The translations under genes and the position numbers were made by a program. Shown here one piece after another: positions 26,738 through 52,683 of a DNA stretch of 64,000 nt. The stretch comes from Neophaeotheca triangularis. Taxonomy: Eukaryota. The DNA is taken from assembly GCA_054600435.1 (NCBI GenBank), contig BAAIJX010000034.1:124001-188000 (forward strand). Direction: 5' to 3'. Within the stretch, counting starts at the first letter, position 1. The number at the start of each line of letters is the position of its first letter. The notes beneath the pieces are model-generated. The model was not told where the DNA came from. It searched no databases and was given only the letters and a program-made list of their open reading frames with translations.

Positions 26738-28455
26738 GGAGAGGCGAGGCACTAAAGGGGGGTATCGAAAAGGTCTTTTCAAGAAATCGGGATTCCAACG
26801 ATTGACTGGTCAAACTTTTGGATTCTGTCGGTTGGCGGTGAGTGGGGTTCTCGGCAGTGGCGATGGAACTAGACGGTGGCATAGACGAATAGATGGATAG
26901 ACCTTTGACTCTCAAAATACCCTCACCCTACTCTAAACCCCTCCTCTCATCTACCCAGCTCTACAGCACAGTCCGCCGCAAAAGCAAACCCATCCAATCC
27001 TTCCTTCTCCATCACGAAAAATCTCACCCCGCTCACCTCTGCGGACTGCCCAATCCCTTTTCCACCCCACATGCCCCTCTTTAAGTGCCGCAAGCAGTAG
27101 TCCCCAAGTAGGTGCAGTGCTAGCTCCGACTCGACTCCCACGGCCCCTGTGTGCGGCTCGAGACTTCTGGCGGCTATGCGGTTGAAGCCTCTTTTCCCCC
27201 CAAATCCCCTTGCTCTCGCAGTCTTTTTTTTTTTCTTTGATCCCTGGACACTATCGATTTTCTGGACGGGAAGTTTTTGCAAGCGTGTGGGTATGGGCAC
27301 TAGAGGTTGAAAGTTCTCCCCTCCCCCTTTCCCCGCAAGAGAAAAAAAAAAAAAAAAAAGGGAATCTGTTGGCACTCTCAAGGGGAATTGGGTCTGGCTG
27401 CGTTGTTCTTCAGTGCGGTTTTGAGTGAGGCGTGTTTTCGTTTCTTACTAGTTTACGGAGCTTTGAGCGTGCTGGTCGAGATGATTGACGCTCGTGGATC
27501 CCTATCGGTTTCTTTGCGGCGCGGCTGGTTCCAACTTGAGGCTATGGCGTGGAAGTCCGTGGGTTTACTTGAGTGGTTCGGTTGGAAGAGGACTGGGCTC
27601 TTGCTTTTTTTTTTTTTTTTTTTTGGTGTTCTTCTTCTTCTTCTTCTTCTTTTTACGGCTAGATGTTCAGTGGATTGTCGAGAGGTTTCATATCAGTCGC
27701 TCGTGGGGTCCTATGTTCTGGCCCTTCTATCTCAGTCGCTAGGTAGTGGTTCGAGACTTGCGGGTAGTGTTAGTGTATTGGAATGGGTGTGTGTTGAAGG
27801 GGAGTTTGGGAGGGATTTGTGGTGGGTTGGATCGTTGGCAGTGAATTCTTGCTGAATTTGCGAGCTCTTCGCGGAATGGAGAGGTAGGCGATCGATCTCT
27901 TTTTGGGAGGAGGGGCGGGGGTGGGTGCTAGAGAGATCTCCTGTGATCTCAGGGGTAACCAGGAGGATCAAAGCTTGGGTGGAACGCCTCATTTCTTCCA
28001 ATGCTTTTGCAAGCGTTGAAACATCACTGTTTTCCTACGATGGGCCTCTCAATTGTTGTTAGATGAGTAGCTAGGGTTTAAGTAGATGCAGCTGGAAGCC
28101 ATGCCTGTACCTTCGGGCCAGCTCGTCAGCTCTCCGCTCCATGATCCTATGCATTGCGAACTGACCTACCGGTTTCCCATTGCTCAGAACTGCGGATAGC
28201 TGCAGCTACCAGCTGAAAAAGGCTCCATAGAAAAGGTACATATCCGGTCCCGAGCAGACTCTGATTTCTACTCTTGATTGCTAATGCATTCAATAAATCT
28301 GCCGGCTGAATCGCACTAGCGCTGAGCTGTGTCATAATAATAGTGTCGATGTCTACTGCCAGTTCCAAGCTCCTTAGCCATTTCACATTTCAGGTTAAAC
28401 CCTCAAGGCTTTATATGTTCTTCACCCTTCTTCCCTACATCATCACTAGCGATTC

Positions 28456-28648
28456 GGATCTTTGGCGCAGTGGTAGCGCGTCTTGGTCAAAGGAGTAGTC
28501 AGCCCGAGAGGGCAGCCGGGACGCCGGCTTTGGGGGTACTTAATTGTACCCTTAGTGGGAGGTTCATCCTCCCATTAAGGCCATTGGCCCGTGTTTAGAC
28601 TGCTGCCGTCAATCGAGATGGTCCCGTGTTCGATTCATGGAGGATCCG
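28456..28648 (+). ncRNA. tRNA-like gene 1 with ~121-nt structured insert (nominal anticodon CAA, non-canonical)
   Basis: Acceptor stem GGATCTT/AGGATCC; D-arm GCGC-AGTGGTA-GCGC (A box); anticodon stem TCTTG/CGAGA; variable loop TGGTC; T-arm CCGTG-TTCGATT-CATGG (B box); TTTTT at 28657-28661. Confidence 0.85.
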
Positions 28649-29224
28649 GTCTCTTCTTTTTGTTGGCTTTTGCTTCTTGCTTTGAAAGTGTCCGTAAGGC
28701 GACTCTGGGAATCAGGAGCTTGAGCAGCAAAAGCTCGATCAGTCCTCGGGGATTGGGGGAGATGGGGCACCTAATTGCAGCGAACACAAGACGGTTTTGC
28801 CTGCTTCTGACTGCCAGATTGCTTTTTCTTACGCATTCGCGACCTTGCAATCTGCTCGTGTAGAGGCGGGAAGCGGCGGATTGATCTGTTGGGCTTTGGA
28901 TGGCTGACTTGATAAGCGTTGGCTGGCTTTGCAATGGTGACAGTGACCGTGTCTTTCGCTGCCAGCACATGCCTTTGCCCTTCACCAGGTTTCGTGCTCG
29001 AACCATAGAAGATCCATTTCTGATTGCAAGATCGCCCCCAGACAGCTTGCGGGCGTCGGGTCTCGAACTTTCAAATGGCATCCTCAGAGTAGCGGGAATA
29101 CAAATCGTCCAGGGGCTGCACTTTATGGTCTTCTGATCTGCCTCCCCCGCTCATCACTGATCTCCATCTGCAGTGACACCTCGAGACTACATTTAGACTC
29201 TCACCAACCTCTACTATCAGCCAA

Positions 29225-29391
29225 GGGTCGTTAGCGCAGTTGGTAGCGCGTCTCAGCTACAAAGCGATATCGTTCCCATGAACGCCGTCGTTGTCAAACA
29301 CCGGCGGGATTCGGCGTGTCCATCACCTGATGGGGGTAAATCGATCGCTGGCGCTTGAGGAAGGTCCCCTGTTCGAGCCAGGGACGACCTA
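29225..29391 (+). ncRNA. tRNA-like gene 2 with ~93-nt structured insert (nominal anticodon TAC, non-canonical)
   Basis: Acceptor stem GGGTCGT/ACGACCT; D-arm GCGC-AGTTGGTA-GCGC; anticodon stem TCTCA/TGAGG; T-arm CCCTG-TTCGAGC-CAGGG; TTTT at 29402-29405. Confidence 0.85.
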
Positions 29392-29879
29392 TTCGTATTC
29401 CTTTTGCATGTTATAATCATTTCTCGACTTTTGATTTTGTGCAAGTATTAGGATCGGCGGTGTGGACGTTGTTTGTTTATCGGCTCGGTTACATGCAGCT
29501 TTTTGTTTGCGCTCCCCGCTCTGACATCCCGCTCAACCAGGACACCTTTCTAAAGGGAGGCTAAAGCCGCACTTTCAAGGGTGCATGTGAGCTCAGGGGA
29601 ATGTGACTGCTGTCGCTAGCACTCGAAAAGCTCCCATACCCCGATTGGGGAGTATCTGTTAATGATTCTTGCTTCCGTTTAACGCACCAGGAGTCTGCCA
29701 ATCTTGAGGCTTATCATGAGAGCTGAACCGTGAACGTGAGAGTCCTCCTGCATACGTTTGGCCAAAACGGGACGTCCTATTTTTCGCCTACCGGAATTGC
29801 CATCCAGCTTCTGGGTGCGCTCAACCTTCCTGGACCCATGTCGCCCCGCCAGCCACAACCCATTCCCGTCGTCTCACCA

Positions 29880-30024
29880 GGGTCGTTGGCGCAGTGGCAG
29901 CGCGTCTAAGTTATCGTGGCAGGTTTGATCCTCTCGACCGGTTGCACCCTGTGGGACACTGCTTGGAGTGTGCGTCAAGCCGACAATCCCGAGGAAGCCC
30001 ACCGCTCGAACGGGTGACGATCCA
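29880..30024 (+). ncRNA. tRNA-like gene 3 (degenerate) with ~71-nt insert
   Basis: Acceptor stem GGGTCGT/ACGATCC; D-arm GCGC-AGTGGCA-GCGC; imperfect anticodon stem; imperfect T-arm CACCG-CTCGAAC-GGGTG; TTTT at 30029-30032. Confidence 0.7.
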
Positions 30025-30166
30025 GTACTTTTGTTCTTCCCTGCTGGTCTAGCCAGTTTTTGCGCGGGGATTAAAAGGTGTCCTTCACTTCCAGACTCTA
30101 AAGAAGATTGACTAGACCAGAACAAAAGTCCCCTCACCGAAGACAGGCCGATAGTTAAGGAAAACT

Positions 30167-31034
30167 TCATTTAGATTCCGATGAAAGCGCCTGCTGCTCC
30201 TGGGCCTCCTGCTTTGCCTGCTGCTCCCTCAAAGCAGCGATCTTGTCCTCCACAACCGCCAACTCAACTTCGACATTCAACATCTTCTTCCTTAGCAAAG
30301 CCTCGTACTCGCCTTCCTTCATGACAGTAACCGGACTCCACTTGCGCTCTGCCAGCCAACGCAGAAAACCCCCCTTTCCCTCGCTTTCCGTCTCCACCCT
30401 CCCATCCCAACGATCATACAGCGCCTGACCCATCCATCCAAAAACCCCGAACATAACCGCTCCGGGCAATACATTAGCGCGCCCACGGAAAACGGCGCCC
30501 GCGATACCTCCAGTTGAGGCTCCGGCGACGGCGGAAGCGGTTTTGATGTCGCTCGCGTTGAGGCCGGAGTAGCTGCCTCCCTGTTCCTGTCCTGGGGCTT
30601 GGGGGGTTTGTGGTCGCTGCCAGGCTGAGAGCAGTAGACTGCGAGTCGCCCAGAAACCGGAGCCGAGACAGAAGGTTTGGATGCCTGTGGCTGTGGCGAA
30701 GAGGGTTGGAGTTGTGGATTTGAGGATTCCTGCTGTGCCGCCTAGGAGGAAGCCTGTGGTGCCTGGGTTTGGGATGTTTGTTAGAGAGAATGACGTTGTG
30801 GAGAACAAGAGCTCCTGTGGGTAGTGTTGTCGCTGTCACGTGCAAGCTAGAAGTAACACATGGACTTGCCAGCGTATGGCCCTGTCTGTATGCCTGATGT
30901 AGACTTGCTTGATTCTTTCGCCACCACCTTTGCCGTCAAGGGGACTTACCTGTGAATGCACCCACCTTCAAGGCGGGCCCGAGGACAGCCGCCACCGAGT
31001 CCCGCGGCAATCCATTATGCTGGCTATTTGCCAT
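30167..31034 (-). CDS. Conserved fungal membrane protein, Tim17/Tim22-like Gly-rich TM helices
   Basis: Exon 1 31034-30950 (MANSQHNGLPRDSVAAVLGPALKVGAFT), GTAAGT...CTAAC...CAG intron, exon 2 30762-30167 (GTTGFLLGGTAGILKS...GRANVLPGAVMFGVFGWMGQ...KWSPVTVM). The family call is an inference. Confidence 0.65.
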
Positions 31035-31428: not shown

Positions 31429-33368
31429 ATGGCGCCCAAAAAGAAGCAGCAGGAGAAGATGAACTTGGGCACGTTTTTGGCGGATCAATGTAAGAGATAT
31501 ACGCGCTGTGGGAAGTAAAGTGCGCTGGACATTTGGCTAACACTTGTACAGCGCTCGGATCGTGGGCCGATGAAATGGATTCGCAGCCTCTGCCCTCTGC
31601 GCCCTCGTCGGGTTACAGCAGCATGAACAGAGACGGAGGCGGAGAAAGGCGTGGCTTCGGCACGGGAGCCTGGGAGCGCTCGGCGAGTGGCACGGGAGAT
31701 CGTGCTGGCAGCGGCTATGGTAAGTCAAGGACAGACGAATGAGAATGAGAATTCCGCGCATTTATTAACAAAGATATTTTCTACAGCCCGCACTGAAGGA
31801 TATGCCCGCCAGGAACGTCAAGAGCTGCCCCTCCCGTCCAAGCCGCCGTACACTGCGCATTTGGGCAACCTCGCCTTCGACGTCAGCTCGGGAGACATTG
31901 AGAGCTTCTTGGGCGAGTGCCAAGTCACCAACGTGCGCATTGTGGAGGACAAGCTTGACCACAAGCCCAAAGGCTTCGGCTATGTCGAATTCGCGACACT
32001 CGACGGCTTGAAGAAGGCCCTCACGCTTACCGAGACAAACTTCATGGGGAGGAACATTCGTATCAGTGTTGCTGATCCACGTAAGTCGTGCCATCCCGAT
32101 ACTCTCCACCTCGCGCACAATTAGACTGACAATATGAAACAGCGAAGGACCGTGGCGGCGACTCGAACCGTGACTTCTCCGACTGGTCCCGCAAGGGGCC
32201 TCTCCCAGACCTTCCTCAGAACAGCCGCAGGCCGAGCGATAGGGGTGCTGGATTCGGTGCTGCGCGCGGCATGGATAACGCTTCAGATGCTGGTGGTGAG
32301 CGCGAAGGCGGTGACAGGAGAAGGCCGGGATTCTTTGAGAACGACAACAAAGTTCGTGACTTCGGCAACTGGGAGCGCAAGGGGCCTCTTACCCCGGCAC
32401 CTGGCGCTGCCCCACCCATGCGCGACGGCGGCAGACTGAAGGAGGGCGGGCCACCCATGGAGAGAAGAGCAAGCCCGGCTTGGGGTGAGGGCCGTTCAGA
32501 GGCTGGATCTAGACCCCCACGCAGGGAGTTTGTCGAGCGTCCGGCTCCCGAGCGCGCCCCAACCGCCGCCGAGCAAGACAGCCAGTGGCGCTCCAAGATG
32601 CGCCCTGACCCCGAGCCAGCCGCGACTCCCGAAGTGTCCACCCCCACCTCTCCCGCCGCCCCCGCCGCACCCAAGGAGCGCCCACGTCTCAACCTAGCCA
32701 AGCGCACCGTCTCTACCGCCGACCCCAGCGCCCCGCCCGCAACCGCTGAAGCCACCGAATCCTCCTCCAAAGCCTCTCCGTTCGGCGCCGCCCGCCCAGT
32801 CGATACAGCGACGAAGGAAAAAGAGATGGCCGAAAAGCGCGAACAAGCCGCCAAGCAAAAAGCCGAAGCCGACGCTAAAGCGCGCGAAGAAAAAGCCGCC
32901 AAAGACGCTGCTGCCCGTGCAGATCGCGCCGACCGCGCCGACAAAGGCCAAGGCGACGAGACCGTTAAATCCCCCACCACCGAGACGGCGCCGCCCACCG
33001 GCCCACGTCGCCCCTCCCGCCAACAACAACAGCAAAATTCCAACAAAAACCCAAAGGAAAACGTCGACCAGCAACAGCGCGAAAAACCCAGTTTCAGTAT
33101 CCTGCAGCGTGATGCCGGCGGCGATGAGCACGATGAAGCACCTTCCGGCGCCGACGCCGAGAACGATGCCAACGGTGCTATCGTCGGCGACAAGGAGACC
33201 AAACCACAGGAAGTCGTGCGTGAGGTTCCCAAGGATGGAAGCGGAGCTACTGCTGAGGAGACGACTGCTGAGGCTATGGATGAGGATGGCTGGAGCACTG
33301 TTGCTGCTAAGCCTAAGACTGGACGCAGGGGTGGAGGGGCTGGCGGGGCGAGGGCGCTGGCTTCTTAG
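31429..33368 (+). CDS. TIF3: Translation initiation factor eIF4B (RRM)
   Basis: Exons 31429-31489, 31552-31719, 31787-32080, 32143-33368. MAPKKKQQEKMNLGTFLAD, SWADE, PPYTAHLGNL (RNP2), KGFGYVEF (RNP1), DW.RKGPL repeats and SPFGAARPVDT. Confidence 0.9.
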
Positions 33369-35364: not shown

Positions 35365-37248
35365 TCACTTTATGTAAACGTCGATTGATTTCCCGGTCGG
35401 GTCTGGCCAGTATCCAGCAGATCGTGTGTATACCAAAGAAAAAAGCTTCTCTTCGTGTGCCAACCGACGTAGTACCAGTACAAAGGGTTCCCATCTTTCA
35501 TGCGTGTCCCGTTTATTACAACGTATAGGAGAGAGTCGACAGACTAGGTCGCTGGCGACAAGTTGAGGGCCAGGGTAGGTATCAGGTTGGTCATCACAAT
35601 CGTCGGAGCTATCGTAGTATTCGGAGTCTTCACACTCGTCTAAGTTGTACCTTGACCACACCAGGCGCCCATTCCTCATGACCGACAATTGCTGGTCTTC
35701 TCCGCCATAGGTTTTCTTCAGCTCCACAAGATGGTCGTCTTGCATGACAGACAGTGATCGGTCTGTCCTGCCTGGGGTCTCCTTCACTTCGCCATAAATC
35801 TTGACTGTGCATTTCAGCACGTTGTTGGTGTCGACTTTCACTTTTAACCAACGCGTCAAAGGGCTGCTGCCGACGAATGGCAGCCGCAGATCGGGTACCC
35901 AAGACGGTAGGCCCTCTAAGGGGCTGTCTATCAGTTCAATGAAGGTGACCTCCCGGACCTTGCGCCACCGCTTTGGAGGGTTGAACGTTTGTATCAACGT
36001 GCTGAAGATCAGATTGGCCAAGCCTTTCTCGACGAGCATAACCGCGAAGATAGTGTAACTTTCGGCAGCACTGAGACGGTAGTCGGGCTGTAAGTTGAAT
36101 TTAGGATCAATGCTGGCAAGCGCAAAGATTCTGTCGCGAGGATCGCTACACTGCTGACTGGAACAGAGTTGCAGTACTATTGGCAAACGCCCATCAGGTC
36201 TTTCGGGGTAGTTCTTCGGGGTTGAAATTTCATCAGCATCTTGGCAGTTCAAGACACTATAAAGCCCATTCCGAAAAAACTGCCAGGCGTCCTCAAATCG
36301 GCGCAAGCGCCTGCTATCCCAGTTACTTATGGCCAAATGGCCCCGAGAGTGTTTTAGGAGTTCAATGGGACGTCGCAAGAAATAATAAACCCGGAGCTCG
36401 TTGAATAGAAGAAGTGGAAACTTGCAAGGCCCCCAGGCTGCCTCTAAAGTAGACGGATCTGAATAGTAAAGTTCTTGGCACATCCAGCGTCGAAAAAAGT
36501 ATCTCCGGCCGAACAAGGCACGCAGAAGTCTTCCAACTTCAAAGATATCCTCACGAAGTTCACTGTCGTGGCATTCAAACAGAGAAGCCCTCTGCTCGTG
36601 TGTCCGCTTGCTTAGTGCCCATTTGAAAGTAGCAACCAGGTCCACCATCTGCCCGTTGTCCTTTGCCCACTCGTGGTCTTCTATGCCCTCATCTCCTGGC
36701 CAGCTAAGGTGCGGGAACCTTTGTTGGTCCAATTCGTGCAGCCTGCGATGGAAATCACGATCTTCTTCGTCTTCGATGTAGGTCATCTCATGCATCAAGA
36801 AATGGAAAAGGCTCGAAATAGCAAGGTCGTCCTTCTCAGATTCGCCTTCGCCAAGCCAGGCAATAGTTCTGGCCGCGTTCGAGTAGATCTCCGACATACG
36901 AGCAACCTGATGATTCTTCTCCTCCAGATCAGACTGGTCGATGCACACGGCATCCACCCATAGTCGTACTTCGCTATCAGGGCGTCTGATTCTTTTGAGA
37001 CCCTCGAATAGATTCTGCGTGATGTCCAGGGTTCTGCCAGACACCTCGATTGTGCGAGAGAGGGAAGCATCTCCGTCTTTGTTCATCCCCCAGCTGTATG
37101 AAAGTGCAGCGTACGGATCGGCAGCATCGCGGCGTGTCACTTCGAGACCACACCGGACAGGGTCATCGTAATTGTCGCTTGGATGTAAGACTAGTATGCG
37201 TATGCGGTCGGCATCTGGTAAGGGTGTGTACTCGAACTTGTCGGCCAT
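35365..37248 (-). CDS. HET-domain (heterokaryon incompatibility, HET-6-like) protein
   Basis: 627-aa ORF with IRILVLHP, YAALSYSWG, ITQNL, LWVDAVCIDQ, QVARMSEIYSNA, YFFRRWMCQE and CSDPRDRIFAL motifs. Confidence 0.9.
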   Translation of the reverse strand: MADKFEYTPLPDADRIRILVLHPSDNYDDPVRCGLEVTRRDAADPYAALSYSWGMNKDGDASLSRTIEVSGRTLDITQNLFEGLKRIRRPDSEVRLWVDAVCIDQSDLEEKNHQVARMSEIYSNAARTIAWLGEGESEKDDLAISSLFHFLMHEMTYIEDEEDRDFHRRLHELDQQRFPHLSWPGDEGIEDHEWAKDNGQMVDLVATFKWALSKRTHEQRASLFECHDSELREDIFEVGRLLRALFGRRYFFRRWMCQELYYSDPSTLEAAWGPCKFPLLLFNELRVYYFLRRPIELLKHSRGHLAISNWDSRRLRRFEDAWQFFRNGLYSVLNCQDADEISTPKNYPERPDGRLPIVLQLCSSQQCSDPRDRIFALASIDPKFNLQPDYRLSAAESYTIFAVMLVEKGLANLIFSTLIQTFNPPKRWRKVREVTFIELIDSPLEGLPSWVPDLRLPFVGSSPLTRWLKVKVDTNNVLKCTVKIYGEVKETPGRTDRSLSVMQDDHLVELKKTYGGEDQQLSVMRNGRLVWSRYNLDECEDSEYYDSSDDCDDQPDTYPGPQLVASDLVCRLSPIRCNKRDTHERWEPFVLVLRRLAHEEKLFSLVYTRSAGYWPDPTGKSIDVYIK

Positions 37249-38709
37249 GATCTCGTATATGCTTGGTGGAATTGGGGCGGTTGACTATAGGAAAGCAAGA
37301 CAAGGAAGATTCAGAGAGGAGAGAAGCGAACGACTTGTACTGCTAGCTCCACCTCCAGCTCCGGTTCAAATGAAACTGAGTGGTTATGTCGCGAATAGCT
37401 GCAGCCCAAGCATTTTTAATATGTTCTGCGGCTTACTCTTGCACGCTGCAGCAGCTCTTGCGTAGCAGGCTGAAATTCTTGTGAGATCGTCCATGCTTGA
37501 AGCACTCATAGGCTACATGTGTCTAGCGATGAGCGCAAAGATAAGATGCGTTTGTTGTCGAAGACAGACCAAATACACTAGTGTATGGCAGCGAAATCAT
37601 TCGCCGAGCGATTTAAAGAGTGTACACCAAATTGCTATGTACTACTCTCACTGGAAGAAATGTCCTCTCCACATCAAGTCCACCCCAGGCGATGTGCGAG
37701 CCCGAGGAGACAAGCGGCGGAGAACCCCTGGAAGCGAGCCTTTTGGGACTCTTACTCCCAGAGGCTTGTTCAATTTTGCAACTCTGTCCACACCGCGGCA
37801 TCCTGTGGAGGTGTCGATGCTGGGCTCTAGCTAATTTGGTTGCTTGAGGAAGGGAGGGTAGAGGGGGAAGGAATAATGAGCCCAACGCGGTCGGGATGCC
37901 TGACGTGCACGTGGCTATTCGAAGTGCTCGCATACGACCGTACAGCCTCTCTCGGATGATCTATTCTTACCTGGTACAGCAGCAAGGCTTGGGCCAAGGG
38001 AAGGATGAGGCTGTGCTGTCGAGACGTGTGTGGGCGTTCCTCAGCTCTCAACCATCGATACTGCTTCCAGCAACCAAGTGCGGCACCGGGGCCCAGCAGG
38101 CCAGAAGCGTCAGACGAATACTGACTCTTTCAAGCGGCGTGCACCGAGGATCTTGGGCACACGATCTTGATCTTGAGATTGATTTGGATTTTGGAAAGGT
38201 GTTGTTGTTTGGGCTGAAACAGAGAGAGAAGAAATCTGCAACGAGGATTGTGAGAGGTCGTAGGTACTAGTAGCTGTGCCCGACTCCCGACAGTCTTGGC
38301 AGCTTACATAGATAACATCACGTGCAGTCAGCTCGATGACCCTTTGAAGGTTGCGCCCGCCCGCCGTCAGCACTACCTAAGGTACTTCACAAGTTCACCC
38401 GTCTTGTCACTCGTGGGAGGCTGGCGCAGTCGTGAAACGCAACTGCGACGGTGACAGCGATGCAAATGTACCACGGTCACTATTATGACACGCCTTGACA
38501 CCTTCTCCTCGTTACAGGACTGTATTCTATTTTGTCACTTCTGACATGGTCGTTTCGAAGGTAGGACCGCACGCAGCATCATTACCTCCGTCTCCCTAGG
38601 TCTACTCGCGCCTCCACGGCTATGGCTCTTGGTTTTCGCGCATTCATGAAAGAAATGATAACGTGGCAGTGAATCGGGTCGGTTGCTGTAAGAATAGAAC
38701 GAAAGAGAT

Positions 38710-46702: not shown

Positions 46703-49700
46703 GACGAAGAGCTTTTTCCTAGAAAGCGGTTATTGTTAGGCGGCTTCGTCGCCAAGAGCGTGTTACAGTAGGAGAAAAAAATTGGGGAGGGGAAAAATAC
46801 AGGAGGTCGTCGGCGGCGGAACCCTAATATATACAGATGCGCGGAGTATGTGGAGGGACCGATGAGATGCGGTCCAGTGGCCCCAGCACAGCTAATAAGT
46901 TGCTTTGGACTCCTTCGGTACATCGGTAGCGCCTATTAGCATGTGAGAGTCACGAGGTTAACTGAATAGTTTGTGTCTTGTTGCGGGTTCCCTTGTCAGC
47001 AACGTCGACATGCAGACATCGGGACCGTGTTACTGTCTGGTCAGCCAATAGCATATGCATACTTTAAGCGAGAGTATGTTACCCAAGGGGCGCGAGAGGC
47101 GTTTGTTGGCTGAAGCCACCCGCAGCTCCACATCTCCAAACGCGATCCCCGCACCCCTACCCCTACTCCCCCGCCCACCTTTCCTTTGCCTCTGCATATC
47201 GGTTACCAAGGTACCTGTTTGTGCCTCTATCGAATCCTTCTGGCAACACGGAGCGGCATCGTTGATATGCGAGCAAAGGCGCCATGGTCGTAACAATAAC
47301 ATTCACGAGAATCCTTCGCAGCAAGGCACAAGGATGATTTCCCCCAGACTCCCAAAGAGGCTAGGTCTGGCTTCCGGACGGCTTGATCCCGCTTAGCCGC
47401 CGGCTCTAAATGAACGTCGGCGACGGTACTGACTTGGAATGAGCTGGAAGATGCCTACTTTGTTCTGGCAACATCAAAATTCTAGATAGGAGTAGAACTT
47501 CAGAACTGGTAGTAACTCGAGCTATTGGCTAGATACTCAAAAGCACAATCTGCCGGTTCCTGATCACGACAGGCTTTTCCACGTGCGAAGAAACATGCCG
47601 TGCTAACCGTGTCAACCTGGAGTTTGATGAAAGGATTCGGGTAAATGCCTCCCGAGCTTCGCCGTCTCTCCACGAGTCACGTTACAGCACTGTACACCAA
47701 CGACCACAGGAACAACGAGGGCAACACGGTGCTGTACCCCCAGCATCCAGCCAGCCACCTCAAGAGCTTGTCCTTGTGGGTTCCTCCTCTCCCCAGGTCG
47801 CCGCTGCCCCGGAACCCAGAGAATCAAGGAACAGTCGCGAGGCTCACGTCACACCTTGCCGCCTTCTTGCGAGGAAGAGCATGGTATCATTCGATGACTC
47901 TGCCTCGAGTCACCCGATGCGAATCGAAAAAGACGTCAGCCAATTCTTCTCACGCATCCACTCGATGAGCTGCATGATGCGTGGCGTCTACAAGCATTCC
48001 ACCCCCGCATCGATACCTCCGCTTCCCGGCACTGGGCAGTCGTTTGGCTTGAAGGATCGCAGTTAGGAATGCATGGTCAAGGTATTGAAGTCTAAGCATG
48101 ACCTCAGCGTACCGAAAGCTCGCGAGACTAGATACGAAGAAACACAAAGATACTAAGTATTGTAACGGTAGCGAGGTTGATCTTGCGAAGCAATTGCTTC
48201 GGGGATAGCAGGAGTCTGGACTCAGCGACCTCACATTGCACATGCCCCTTTTCTCCCCACAGATACCCACGTCTTGCAGCTTGTCTCGCGTGTTTTCAGA
48301 GCTTTACTCTTTTAAGGTTCATCCTCCCCGGACGACGACACCATAGCTGGGTTCAGTTTTCCGCAACGGCAGGATCTCCAAAATTCATACGTATACAAGC
48401 GCCCAAAATTTAGAAACAAAAAGCACGCGAAGAGCAAATTCTGAACAGCATTTCCCAACCCAAGCTTGCAACGATTGCCAAAGAAGCCAGTCAAGCCCGC
48501 GGAATGGCAGCCCCAGCCAAGACATTCGGTCTTGTCGCCAAGGTACATCTCCACCCTCCACGACAGACCTGACTCGGCTCTCGGCACTCTTGAGTCTTGA
48601 GGTGCTCCTTTCGGGTGCCCACATGGAGGTTGTTTTACTGATCACCACATGTCGGTTTGTCACTGTAATGCTCTGCGCTGAAGCAGCCCTTTTCTAAACC
48701 ACAGGCAGCTGAGATCGACAACATCGACACTGTTGCAGCGACAGTCGCATAGATTACAGTAACCACGAGTAACACCACGTGGGCAGCTTGAAATAGGACG
48801 ACGATCAAACCGGGACCAAGGGCGTGGTGCGCGCCTAACTGTATGGCGATAACGCTCCTCAAATGCGCGAGGCTCGTAGAACGCCAAGTACCATTGACAG
48901 GCCTCGGATGCTGCTCAGAACTTCGTCAGAGAACTGTTCGCATTGTCAAGCATCTCGACAGCGCCTCGGTGCGGTCGATTAAAGTATTCGATATCATCTA
49001 TTTCTGGTTATGCCTCGAGTTCGTTCGCAGGAAAGAGCAATACCCGCTGTCCACATGGCACTGACCTACTAAAATCTGGTTCTTGCCTCTCGCTAGCCGT
49101 ATCCTAGCAACAGAGCCAACGATATAGCACCCTCTATCGTATGCTCTGCTGCCGTCTCAGCCCATCAATGACCTCCCCCTTGTCGAATAGCCCTACGAAT
49201 AGCAGGAGCTGCTTTGACTGTCATAGCTGGCAAGAACAGACAGATATAGATAGGGAGGGCCTTTTCAGTTAACTGCAAATTGAAGTGGAAGTGATAGAGA
49301 CCTGGCGGAGGGAACGTCTGACTTGACCTGAAATCTCTCCTGTCCTCGTGGTAGCAGGCGGTGTTTTGGAAGGACAGTCCTTGAACAACGAGTACGGACT
49401 AGTAAGCCTGTAACGTGATCGCTCTAAAGATGAAGAAGTCTCCCTCCTTGTAGCCTGAGGAAGCGATGAGCCGACAGGCATGTCTCTTCTGGTTTGCAGC
49501 AACTACTAGAACGATACCATAGCTGGCCAGGTGCTATTAGAGAGCAGCGCAAGATGGGACGCCTAGTTATACCTAGGTCTTGGGCGATGTTACTAGGACG
49601 TATGTTTTCGACAAGCCGAAGTTGGTGACACGGGTCAGCACATGTAGAAGATCTCGACATCCAAACACTGAGCAAGCGAGAAGTCCAACAGACCCGTCGA

Positions 49701-51957: not shown

Positions 51958-52683
51958 TCATACCGCATTCCGACTCCCTGTACCCTGCTCCTTCCAAGCA
52001 CTATCAGCATCAGGATGAATCTCCGGCACCTCAATCCCCCTCCTCCCCTCCGCCTTCACCCTAAAATCAACCCCAAACCTCCCATCCCTCTCCCCCACTG
52101 TCCCCTCAAAATCCGGAAACTGGCTCTCATGAGTAAAACTCGTCATCAACCTCGGCTCCCCCAGGGGCAAAGTATCCCCCCTCTCCGTCTGCCACAAATG
52201 ATAAACCTTGCCATACAGCACCACCACCTCCTCCATCTCAGCATTTTCCGCAACCTCCCACGCCTTCTCGCCAGCAATTCCCGCAGCTTTCGCGGCTCCA
52301 GGGGTCGGCATGACTAGCATCCCGCTCTTGACCTCGAACACATGACTGTGCCACAGCCTCCTCTCTTGCGCGTCGAGACTCTCGTACAGGTGCGGTTTTA
52401 TCATGTACTCGACGCCGATCAACCGGGCGTCTGCCGCGTCCGAGTCGTATAGGATGCATTGCCGCACATCTTCGTTGAGGTGTGCGCAGTAGTGGTTTGC
52501 TTCGACCGCGACGGAGCCCGGGGCAGCTGCGGGCGTGTGGTAGGCGTTTAGGTGGGCGCAGAGGCGGGAGACGGGGGCAAAGGATTGGGAGAGGGAGGCG
52601 CCGGTTTCGAGGGTGCGGTTTTTGAGGCTTTCCGCGTGGCCGGCGACGTTGTTGTCCGTGGTGGGGGTGTTTTCTAGGGACAT
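51958..52683 (-). CDS. DUF1264 / oil-body-associated protein-like
   Basis: EANHYCAHLNEDVRQCILYDS, LIGVEYMI, LWHSHVFEVKSGMLVMP and YGKVYHLWQ motifs. Confidence 0.88.
   Translation of the reverse strand: MSLENTPTTDNNVAGHAESLKNRTLETGASLSQSFAPVSRLCAHLNAYHTPAAAPGSVAVEANHYCAHLNEDVRQCILYDSDAADARLIGVEYMIKPHLYESLDAQERRLWHSHVFEVKSGMLVMPTPGAAKAAGIAGEKAWEVAENAEMEEVVVLYGKVYHLWQTERGDTLPLGEPRLMTSFTHESQFPDFEGTVGERDGRFGVDFRVKAEGRRGIEVPEIHPDADSAWKEQGTGSRNAV

What the first reader, a model, noticed from the sequence alone, without database searches (positions are those of the whole stretch)
28486..28613. Insert of element 1 folds as five hairpins on one multiway junction
Seen: closing stem AGTAGTC (28494-28500) / GACTGCT (28598-28604) encloses GCCC-GAGA-GGGC (GNRA tetraloop), AGCCGG-GACG-CCGGCT, GGGTAC-TTAATT-GTACCC, AGTGGGAGG-TTCAT-CCTCCCATT and GGCC-ATT-GGCC, placed almost end to end. 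Inference: near-complete pairing into a six-way junction is more order than a disposable tRNA intron needs and suggests a functional RNA domain. If spliced and charged, the shell would put a CAA anticodon on a short-variable-arm, non-Leu body.
Basis: partly seen in the sequence, partly recalled or inferred. Interest (0 to 1): 0.8.

Follow-up and report, generated by a model that had tools for sequence, protein, structure and literature searches.

The report
Hairpin-packed long intron in fungal tRNA-like gene
A tRNA-shaped gene in a filamentous fungus is split at the usual intron site by a 121-base insert that folds into five tidy hairpins, which is rare but not shown to be functional because its three neighbouring sister copies carry unrelated, unstructured inserts.

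Summary
Bases 28492-28612 fold as a closing stem plus five hairpins, a six-way junction (MFE -66 kcal/mol, z -6.15, 0 of 200 shuffles as good). It is the most stable 121-nt stretch on either strand of the window (best of 8518 windows).

The insert sits at the canonical 37/38 intron site of a well-formed class-I tRNA shell, 28456-28648. ARAGORN with introns calls it tRNA-Leu(caa) with a 121-nt intron. The DNA is nuclear DNA of a filamentous ascomycete.

The gene is the first of four tandem tRNA-like paralogues within 1.6 kb. The inserts do not align above chance, apart from one weak local match between E1 and E3. The "anticodons" differ (caa, gat, aca, atc), two shells are decayed, and no other insert folds better than shuffles.

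No orthologue, expression data or Rfam match could be obtained.

Best reading: a lineage-specific tRNA-derived Pol III gene with an unusually long, compact canonical-type intron. A functional RNA domain is possible but unsupported. The CAA anticodon on a non-Leu body is real as sequence, but it more likely marks a drifting gene family than a recoding tRNA.

The parts
28456..28491 (+). 5' exon of tRNA-like gene E1: acceptor 28456-62, U8 G9, D arm 28465-79 (GCGC/AGTGGTA/GCGC; A-box-like 28463-73), G26, anticodon stem 28481-85, loop G32 U33 C34 A35 A36 A37 (28486-91)
   Evidence: ARAGORN with introns; sequence
28492..28612 (+). 121-nt insert at canonical position 37/38: closing stem plus five hairpins (six-way junction)
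   Evidence: MFE = centroid, -66 kcal/mol, z -6.15; most stable of 8518 windows
28492..28500 (+). 5' strand of closing stem, pairs with 28598-28607 (G28605 bulged)
   Evidence: pair probabilities 0.90-1.00
28502..28513 (+). Hairpin H1, GCCC-GAGA-GGGC (GNRA-type loop)
28514..28529 (+). Hairpin H2, AGCCGG-GACG-CCGGCU, abuts H1 with no spacer
28533..28552 (+). Hairpin H3, 7 bp including one G-U, loop UUAAUU
28553..28577 (+). Hairpin H4, 10 bp including one G-U, loop UUCAU, abuts H3; weak similarity to the start of the E3 insert
28579..28589 (+). Hairpin H5, GGCC-AUU-GGCC
28598..28607 (+). 3' strand of closing stem
28608..28612 (+). Last five intron bases GUCAA: C28610 can pair with G32 (A-I pair), leaving A28611, A28612 and U28613 as a 3-nt bulge around the 3' splice site. 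They also directly repeat GTCAA at 28486-90.
   Evidence: Inspection; the constrained fold with this pair costs +6.3 kcal/mol over the MFE
28613..28648 (+). 3' exon: U38, anticodon stem 28614-18, variable loop UGGUC 28619-23, T arm 28624-40 (loop TTCGATT; B-box-like 28627-37), acceptor 28641-47, discriminator G 28648
28657..28661 (+). TTTTT run 9 nt after the discriminator, the expected place for a Pol III terminator; there is no TTTT inside the gene
   Evidence: Inspection
28878..29016 (+). E4: strongly decayed paralogue (acceptor like E1); found only at the 70% ARAGORN threshold, as 'Ile(gat)'
   Evidence: nhmmer 3'-half hit E 0.022; fold z +0.13
29225..29391 (+). E2: intact tRNA-like paralogue, 'Cys(aca)', 91-nt insert at the same site, TTTT at 29402-05
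   Evidence: insert fold z -0.47
29880..30024 (+). E3: partly decayed paralogue (2 of 5 anticodon-stem pairs and 1 T-stem pair broken), 'Asp(atc)', about 71-nt insert, TTTT at 30029-32
   Evidence: insert fold z +1.12

Best explanation
E1 (28456-28648, + strand) is a tRNA-derived, Pol III-type gene in the nuclear genome of a filamentous ascomycete. It is the best-preserved of four tandem paralogues.

Its 121-nt insert is a canonical-position (37/38) tRNA intron that has become an unusually compact six-way junction.

Proposed course (inferred, not shown):
1. Transcription starts from the internal A and B boxes and stops at the T5 run.
2. The ends are processed.
3. The splicing endonuclease, measuring from the intact tRNA body, cuts at 28491/28492 and 28612/28613. 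It is helped by a G32:C28610 anticodon-intron pair that leaves the 3' site in a 3-nt bulge.
4. The fungal ligase Trl1 joins the exons into a 72-nt class-I tRNA with loop GUCAAAU.

The excised intron would have its 5' end buried in the closing stem. It should therefore be harder to degrade from the 5' end than ordinary fungal tRNA introns.

The hairpin architecture is specific to this one copy. I take it to be a young, lineage-specific feature whose function, if any, is unproven. The CAA triplet on a non-Leu body reflects a family whose anticodon loops are drifting, not a selected decoder.
For: Structure: z -6.15 with 0 of 200 shuffles as good. It is the best of 8518 windows. Mean pair probability is 0.96 with 3 G-U pairs. 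The + strand folds 13.5 kcal/mol better than the - strand.

tRNA shell: ARAGORN at its default threshold with introns allowed finds a 74-nt cloverleaf with a 121-nt intron in the anticodon loop. By inspection the shell has U8, A14, G18 G19, G26, a 5-nt variable loop, G53-C61 and a TTCGATT loop.

Removing 28492-28612 leaves a 7-nt loop. The cloverleaf and the insert domain co-fold.

The T5 run is 9 nt downstream and there is no TTTT inside the gene.

Host: a eukaryote. Hits include HET, MAP65/ASE1, P4-ATPase, eIF2B and GH76, and the best named hits are Dothideomycetes.

Family: three further copies share the 5' and 3' halves, all on the + strand, with an insert at the same place.

Literature: predicted eukaryotic canonical introns span 6-133 nt (PMC4090602, section 3 read). 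The endonuclease uses a ruler plus the A-I pair (PMC10485636, passages).
Against: No expression or splicing data. Laying four public runs returned nothing.

In the MFE the 3' splice site lies inside an extended anticodon helix (G32-U38, U33-A28612). The A-I/bulge conformer is 6.3 kcal/mol less stable.

G32 and G73 are unusual for a decoder (recalled), and the anticodon does not match the body.

Two of the four family members are visibly decayed, so E1 itself could be a recently dead copy.

Rfam's tRNA model does not report it, even at E up to 10.
Confidence: 0.5

Rival explanations
1. The insert is a functional RNA domain. Either the excised intron persists as a stable linear or circular small RNA (a fungal counterpart of Drosophila tric31905 or of yeast free tRNA introns), or the tRNA shell serves as a natural promoter and processing scaffold for it.
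For: The fold is exceptionally well defined. The three wobble pairs and the GNRA loop favour the transcribed strand. The closing stem brings the two intron ends together. The shell is kept intact while the anticodon is free to vary.

Precedents: a 113-nt intron with covariant pairs in a Drosophila tRNA-Tyr gene (PMC4536317, passages), and Trl1-dependent circularisation of the yeast tRNA-Trp intron (PMC13079951, passages).
Against: Among the paralogues, 0 of 3 inserts fold better than shuffles. None aligns with E1 above the shuffle range, except a weak H4-like stretch in E3 (score 26 versus shuffle mean 18.8, sd 3.5, maximum 29), and that stretch has an uncompensated mismatch.

There is no Rfam family, no second copy in the window, and no match in the three collections scanned beyond chance hits.
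Confidence: 0.2
2. The whole cluster is a set of dead tRNA pseudogenes. E1 is simply the youngest copy, and the perfect hairpins are DNA-level products (small inverted duplications or template switching) with no RNA role.
For: E3 and E4 are decayed. The anticodon triplets are all different and include types not used by eukaryotes, such as ACA and ATC (usage recalled). The stems are nearly perfect palindromes that also fold well on the opposite strand (z -4.78).
Against: Both E1 and E2 keep all cloverleaf pairs and conserved tertiary positions. Each of E1, E2 and E3 is followed by a T run. All three non-Watson-Crick pairs in the E1 fold are G-U on the + strand.
Confidence: 0.2
3. The 121 bases are a small mobile hairpin element (MITE-like) that landed in the anticodon loop. 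GTCAA would be the target-site duplication and the closing stem would be the terminal inverted repeats.
For: GTCAA occurs at 28486-90 and again at 28608-12, directly flanking the stem-closed insert.
Against: Removing one repeat plus the insert leaves a 6-nt anticodon loop. All four paralogues have different inserts at the same site. No other copy of any part of the insert is in the 64-kb window. The scans of other collections gave only chance hairpin matches.
Confidence: 0.07
4. After splicing, E1 is a working tRNA that reads UUG with an amino acid other than leucine (natural mistranslation or recoding).
For: A CAA triplet sits in a correct 7-nt loop on an intact class-I body with a 5-nt variable loop.
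Against: The paralogues show that the triplet is not conserved. G32 is atypical (recalled). Ordinary genes in the window translate into long Pfam-matching domains under the standard code.
Confidence: 0.03

Closest known systems
Canonical nuclear tRNA introns of eukaryotes (position 37/38, removed by the Sen/TSEN endonuclease and, in fungi, Trl1)
   Same: The position is the same. An anticodon-intron pair is possible, with a 3-nt bulge at the 3' site. The tRNA body is intact for the ruler mechanism. The length lies within the reported 6-133 nt range (PMC4090602, section 3).
   Different: It lies at the top of the length range. It folds as an autonomous six-way junction, where these introns usually form one helix with the anticodon. 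The host gene has an anticodon that does not fit its body and sits in a cluster of decaying copies.
Drosophila tric31905, the 113-nt intron of tRNA-Tyr gene CR31905 (PMC4536317)
   Same: It is an unusually long, highly structured intron at the canonical site of a eukaryotic tRNA gene, of similar length.
   Different: tric31905 is conserved among Drosophilids with covariant pairs, is shown to be circular and abundant, and sits in a bona fide tRNA-Tyr. Here none of this is shown, and the paralogous inserts are unrelated. In metazoans RtcB-type ligation makes the circle; fungi use Trl1.
Yeast free tRNA introns (fitRNAs) and their turnover (PMC13079951)
   Same: The host is also a fungus with the Trl1 pathway. 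Excised introns can persist, act in trans, or be circularised (tRNA-Trp intron).
   Different: [quoted passage not shown] The E1 insert is almost fully self-paired.
Archaeal tRNA-Trp intron carrying a box C/D small RNA (cited in PMC4090602, section 3)
   Same: It is a functional RNA nested in a long tRNA intron.
   Different: That case is archaeal, with a strict bulge-helix-bulge motif and C/D boxes. By inspection, E1 has no C or D box and only 2 of 4 central-helix pairs.

Membership tests
Eukaryotic nuclear tRNA gene with canonical intron | Cloverleaf with conserved positions (U8, A14, G18 G19, G53-C61, T-loop TTCRANY) | tested here: met
   ARAGORN -i at its default threshold; positions read
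Eukaryotic nuclear tRNA gene with canonical intron | Intron between positions 37 and 38 whose removal restores a 7-nt anticodon loop | tested here: met
   Removing 28492-28612 leaves GUCAAAU. ARAGORN places the same 121 nt one base further 3'.
Eukaryotic nuclear tRNA gene with canonical intron | Anticodon-intron (A-I) pair between position 32 and intron base -3, with the 3' splice site in a bulge | tested here: inconclusive
   G32:C28610 can pair and leaves a 3-nt bulge. This conformer is 6.3 kcal/mol above the MFE, which instead pairs G32-U38 and U33-A28612.
Eukaryotic nuclear tRNA gene with canonical intron | Pol III signals: internal A and B boxes, downstream T run, no internal T4 | tested here: met
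   By inspection: A-box-like 28463-73, B-box-like 28627-37, TTTTT 28657-61. The consensus sequences are recalled.
Eukaryotic nuclear tRNA gene with canonical intron | Anticodon consistent with the body's isotype | tested here: not met
   CAA on a body with a 5-nt variable loop and a 4-bp D stem. Isotype-specific models (tRNAscan-SE) were not available.
Eukaryotic nuclear tRNA gene with canonical intron | Transcribed and spliced in vivo | not testable with these tools
   One RNA run held 7% of the sampled words, but nothing could be laid.
tRNA-Leu (class II) | Long variable arm | tested here: not met
   The variable loop is UGGUC, 5 nt.
tRNA-Leu (class II) | Discriminator A73 (recalled identity element) | tested here: not met
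   The discriminator is G28648.
Conserved structured tRNA-intron RNA (tric31905 type) | Structure conserved across relatives with compensatory changes | tested here: not met
   Only paralogues were available. 0 of 3 inserts fold better than shuffles, and alignment is within the shuffle range. No orthologues could be obtained.
Conserved structured tRNA-intron RNA (tric31905 type) | Stable (circular) intron RNA detected | not testable with these tools
   No usable RNA data.
Archaeal-type bulge-helix-bulge intron | Two 3-nt bulges separated by a 4-bp helix | tested here: not met
   Only 2 of the 4 central pairs are possible (G32:C-3, C34:G-5), by inspection. The MFE shows a 4x4 internal loop.
Any Rfam family | Score at or above the gathering threshold | tested here: not met
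   0 matches in the window. At E up to 10, 4 matches in 28300-30200, all far below gathering.

The most novel reading that the evidence does not exclude
A fungus uses a tRNA-shaped Pol III gene as a delivery vehicle. The tRNA body supplies the promoter, the end processing and the splicing-endonuclease ruler, and the real product is the excised 121-nt six-way-junction RNA, which persists in linear or Trl1-circularised form. That would be a fungal, independently evolved analogue of metazoan tricRNAs, with the drifting anticodon showing that decoding is no longer the selected function.
Probability: 0.15. Interest if true: 0.7.

Novelty: new variant of a known kind. Interest (0 to 1): 0.4.

Why it matters
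Eukaryotic tRNA introns are usually short and poorly structured. The one well-studied long structured example, Drosophila tric31905, turned out to make an abundant circular RNA.

A 121-nt autonomous multi-hairpin domain at the same site in a fungal tRNA-like gene would, if expressed and conserved, extend that idea to fungi, which use a different ligase. It would also give a natural example of a tRNA scaffold.

If instead it is a by-product in a dying gene cluster, it shows how quickly compact RNA-like order can arise without selection. That is a caution for structure-based ncRNA discovery.

Tried and rejected
- Default ARAGORN (no introns) and Rfam at gathering thresholds found nothing in the window. 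Rfam at E up to 10 over 28300-30200 gave only four noise-level matches.
- No whole genome is held for this window.
- The search for sequencing runs listed 4 runs: one probable source, one related DNA run with 27% of the words, one marine metatranscriptome with 7%, and one with 0%. Laying all four on 28200-30200 returned no contig at all, so nothing can be said about expression, splicing or strain variation.
- A metagenome scan with a 19-mer spanning the D stem to A37 gave 2 loci. Both are coding-like DNA with no tRNA features, so they are chance matches.
- A genome-contig scan with the H4 20-mer gave 1 locus, an unrelated hairpin in an archaeal MAG.
- A viral-contig scan with the exon-intron junction 18-mer gave 0 loci. 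The H3 18-mer gave 10 loci, all phage terminator-type hairpins followed by T runs, with no similarity beyond the 18-mer.
- Earlier findings of this scan: none for this genome or sequence. A word search returned only archaeal and phage cases.
- Paper searches for the D-arm 17-mer and 15-mer as text found 0 papers. Searches for long tRNA introns or tRNA-like inserts in Pezizomycotina or Dothideomycetes found no paper on such elements among the 24 listed.
- The 148-aa ORF 28635-29081 (-) that overlaps E1's 3' end and E4 has no Pfam match and no homologue. I treat it as spurious.
- Identifying the shell's isotype: from memory the D arm and variable loop resemble fungal tRNA-Cys or tRNA-Lys. No tool here could test this, so it is left open.
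- 5S rRNA (similar length), snoRNA boxes and hammerhead motifs were considered and rejected: Rfam gave no match and the motifs are absent on inspection.

Full report
**What is in the sequence**

The stretch 28456-28648 on the + strand reads as a tRNA gene interrupted in its anticodon loop. ARAGORN in its default mode finds no tRNA in the 64-kb window. Rfam at gathering thresholds finds no family.

With introns allowed, ARAGORN at its normal threshold reports two genes: tRNA-Leu(caa) at 28455-28649 with a 121-nt intron, and tRNA-Cys(aca) at 29225-29391 with a 91-nt intron.

The E1 shell has these parts:
- a 7-bp acceptor stem
- a GCGC/AGTGGTA/GCGC D arm
- a 5-bp anticodon stem
- a 5-nt variable loop (UGGUC)
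- a CCGTG/TTCGATT/CATGG T arm
- discriminator G

ARAGORN shifts the same 121 nt by one base.

A TTTTT run lies at 28657-61 and there is no TTTT inside the gene.

**Check of the observation**

The fold is a nine-pair closing stem (one bulged G) enclosing five hairpins with loops GAGA, GACG, UUAAUU, UUCAU and AUU.

- There are 40 pairs (27 GC, 10 AU, 3 GU), so 80 of 121 nt are paired, with mean pair probability 0.96.
- The energy is -66 kcal/mol against -42.1 +/- 3.9 for 200 dinucleotide-preserving shuffles, z -6.15, with none as good.
- The reverse complement folds to -52.5, z -4.78. The order is therefore partly a property of palindromic DNA, but it is better on the tRNA-sense strand, where all three non-Watson-Crick pairs are G-U.
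- As an empirical background I folded 8518 windows of 121 nt (both strands, step 15) across the whole window. The mean was -28.5 (sd 9.8). The best window was the one overlapping the insert (-64.0), the best unrelated one was -58.3 at 66% GC, and none reached -66.
- In the full gene, the acceptor, D and T arms and the insert domain form together (-93.8; 192-nt version z -5.29).

**Host and context**

Large ORFs in the window carry eukaryotic and fungal domains: MAP65/ASE1, P4-type phospholipid ATPase, HET, Mhr1, eIF2B and GH76. The HET protein's named relatives are Pezizomycotina, the closest being Dothideomycetes. This is nuclear DNA of a filamentous ascomycete at 54% GC.

The interval around E1 has no Pfam-bearing ORF. 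The 148-aa ORF that overlaps it has no homologue. It is most simply intergenic.

**A tandem family**

The 5' half of E1 recurs at 29225 and 29880. Profiles built from the three 5' halves and three 3' halves find those copies plus a weak fourth 3' half at 28987-29015 (E 0.022).

ARAGORN results at lower thresholds:
- At 90% it reports E3 (29880-30024, 'Asp(atc)'). Two of five anticodon-stem pairs and one T-stem pair are broken.
- At 70% it reports E4 (28878-29016, 'Ile(gat)').

Four tRNA-like units therefore lie head to tail within 1.57 kb. All carry an insert at the same position. E1 and E2 have intact shells, while E3 and E4 are decaying.

E1/E4 and E2/E3 share acceptor sequences pairwise. 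The triplet in the anticodon position differs in each copy: caa, gat, aca, atc.

**The other inserts**

Local alignments between inserts fall inside the range of shuffled controls. The one exception is a weak match of E1 hairpin H4 to the start of the E3 insert (score 26; shuffles 18.8 +/- 3.5, maximum 29). In that match E3 has an uncompensated C-C mismatch.

None of the other inserts or genes folds better than shuffles:
- E2 gene z -0.79, insert z -0.47
- E3 gene z +0.43, insert z +1.12
- E4 z +0.13

The six-way junction is thus a peculiarity of E1, not a family trait.

**Can it be spliced?**

Eukaryotic splicing endonuclease measures from the tRNA body. It needs a pair between position 32 and the intron base three nucleotides before the 3' site, with that site in a bulge (PMC4090602, section 3 read in full; PMC10485636, passages).

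- In E1, G32 (28486) can pair with C28610. That leaves A28611, A28612 and U28613 as a 3-nt bulge, cut after its second base.
- In E2, C32 can pair with G(-3), followed by U33-G and A34-U. That is closer to a bulge-helix-bulge.
- These pairings are by inspection.
- In E1 the conformer with the A-I pair is 6.3 kcal/mol above the MFE, which instead extends the anticodon helix through G32-U38 and U33-A28612. In E2 the difference is 4.1 kcal/mol.

Splicing is therefore plausible but not assured.

The length of 121 nt lies inside, but near the top of, the 6-133 nt range reported for predicted eukaryotic tRNA introns (PMC4090602, section 3).

**The shell's identity**

The CAA triplet sits on a class-I body with a 5-nt variable loop and a 4-bp D stem, so this is not a tRNA-Leu architecture. 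G73 instead of A73 and G32 also speak against a normal Leu decoder; those identity rules are recalled, not tested.

I could not run isotype-specific models. My impression that the core resembles fungal tRNA-Cys or tRNA-Lys is from memory only.

Because the triplet differs in all four paralogues, and two of the triplets (ACA, ATC) are types eukaryotes do not normally use (recalled), I read the anticodon loop as unconstrained in this family. I do not read it as evidence for recoding.

**Search for relatives and expression**

- No whole genome is held.
- The run search listed a probable source run, a related DNA run (27% of the words), a marine metatranscriptome (7%) and a fourth run (0%). Laying all four gave no contigs.
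- Exact-pattern scans of metagenome, prokaryotic-genome and viral collections gave only chance matches. The ten viral hits to the H3 18-mer are phage terminator hairpins with no wider similarity.
- Earlier notes of this scan hold nothing on this genome or sequence. The word search gave archaeal and phage cases only.
- Literature searches found no description of such elements in Pezizomycotina and no paper containing the D-arm motif as text.

**Interpretation**

- Shown: the fold, its statistical exceptionality, the canonical position, the intact shell, the tandem family and its decay, and the absence of structure in the sister inserts.
- Inferred: Pol III transcription, splicing at the predicted sites, and greater stability of the excised intron because its 5' end is base-paired. 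In yeast, linear introns are cleared by 5' phosphorylation and 5'-to-3' exonuclease, and one intron is circularised by Trl1 (PMC13079951, passages).

My probabilities:
- 0.5: E1 is a lineage-specific tRNA-derived gene with a long, compact, canonical-type intron of unproven function.
- 0.2: a genuinely functional intron RNA. The closest precedent is Drosophila tric31905, 113 nt, with covariant pairs (PMC4536317, passages).
- 0.2: a silent pseudogene cluster with DNA-level palindromes.
- 0.07: a hairpin mobile element with a GTCAA target duplication. Excision would leave a 6-nt loop, and all paralogues have inserts at the same site.
- 0.03: a recoding tRNA.

**Verdict**

The interpretation as a functional domain is not supported by the only relatives available, and it cannot be settled without orthologues or RNA data.

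It is best filed as a new variant of a known kind, a very long and highly structured canonical tRNA intron. Its setting, a drifting tandem family of tRNA-like genes, tempers its significance. Interest 0.4.

Noticed in passing
window 29225-29391 (+): E2 is a second intact tRNA-like gene with triplet ACA in the anticodon position and a 91-nt insert. Its splice-site region is closer to a bulge-helix-bulge than E1's (C32:G, U33:G and A34:U pairs with the intron end, and a 6-bp closing stem AGCGAU/AUCGCU). The insert is not unusually stable (z -0.47).
   Followed up: partly
window 29880-30024 (+): E3 is a partly decayed paralogue. Its acceptor stem has G3:U70 with discriminator A73, which is the alanine identity signature (recalled). 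TTTT follows at 30029-32.
   Followed up: partly
window 28878-29016 (+): E4 is a strongly decayed fourth copy between E1 and E2. It lies inside a 148-aa ORF on the opposite strand (28635-29081) that has no homologues.
   Followed up: yes
window 28486-28490 and 28608-28612: A direct repeat, GTCAA, sits at both edges of the E1 insert. It could be a target-site duplication or a footprint of how the intron arose. Excision by the repeat would leave a 6-nt loop.
   Followed up: partly
L004-L013 (viral contigs), position 301-318: The 18-nt H3 hairpin of E1 is letter-for-letter identical to hairpins in ten phage contigs. In most of them a T-rich stretch follows, like an intrinsic terminator. Nothing beyond the hairpin is similar, so this looks like convergence of a simple stable hairpin.
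   Followed up: yes
window 30496-30631 (+), 32506-32700 (-), 52426-52546 (+), 37651-37786 (-), 48466-48586 (-): These are the next most stable 121-nt folds in the window (-55 to -58 kcal/mol), mostly in GC-rich stretches. No exact inverted repeats of 12 nt or more were found in the two regions checked (37600-37820 and 48400-48650).
   Followed up: partly
window 35365-37248 (-): A HET-domain (heterokaryon incompatibility) gene. Its best homologue is only 40-41% identical, which is typical of a fast-evolving fungal allorecognition gene.
   Followed up: partly
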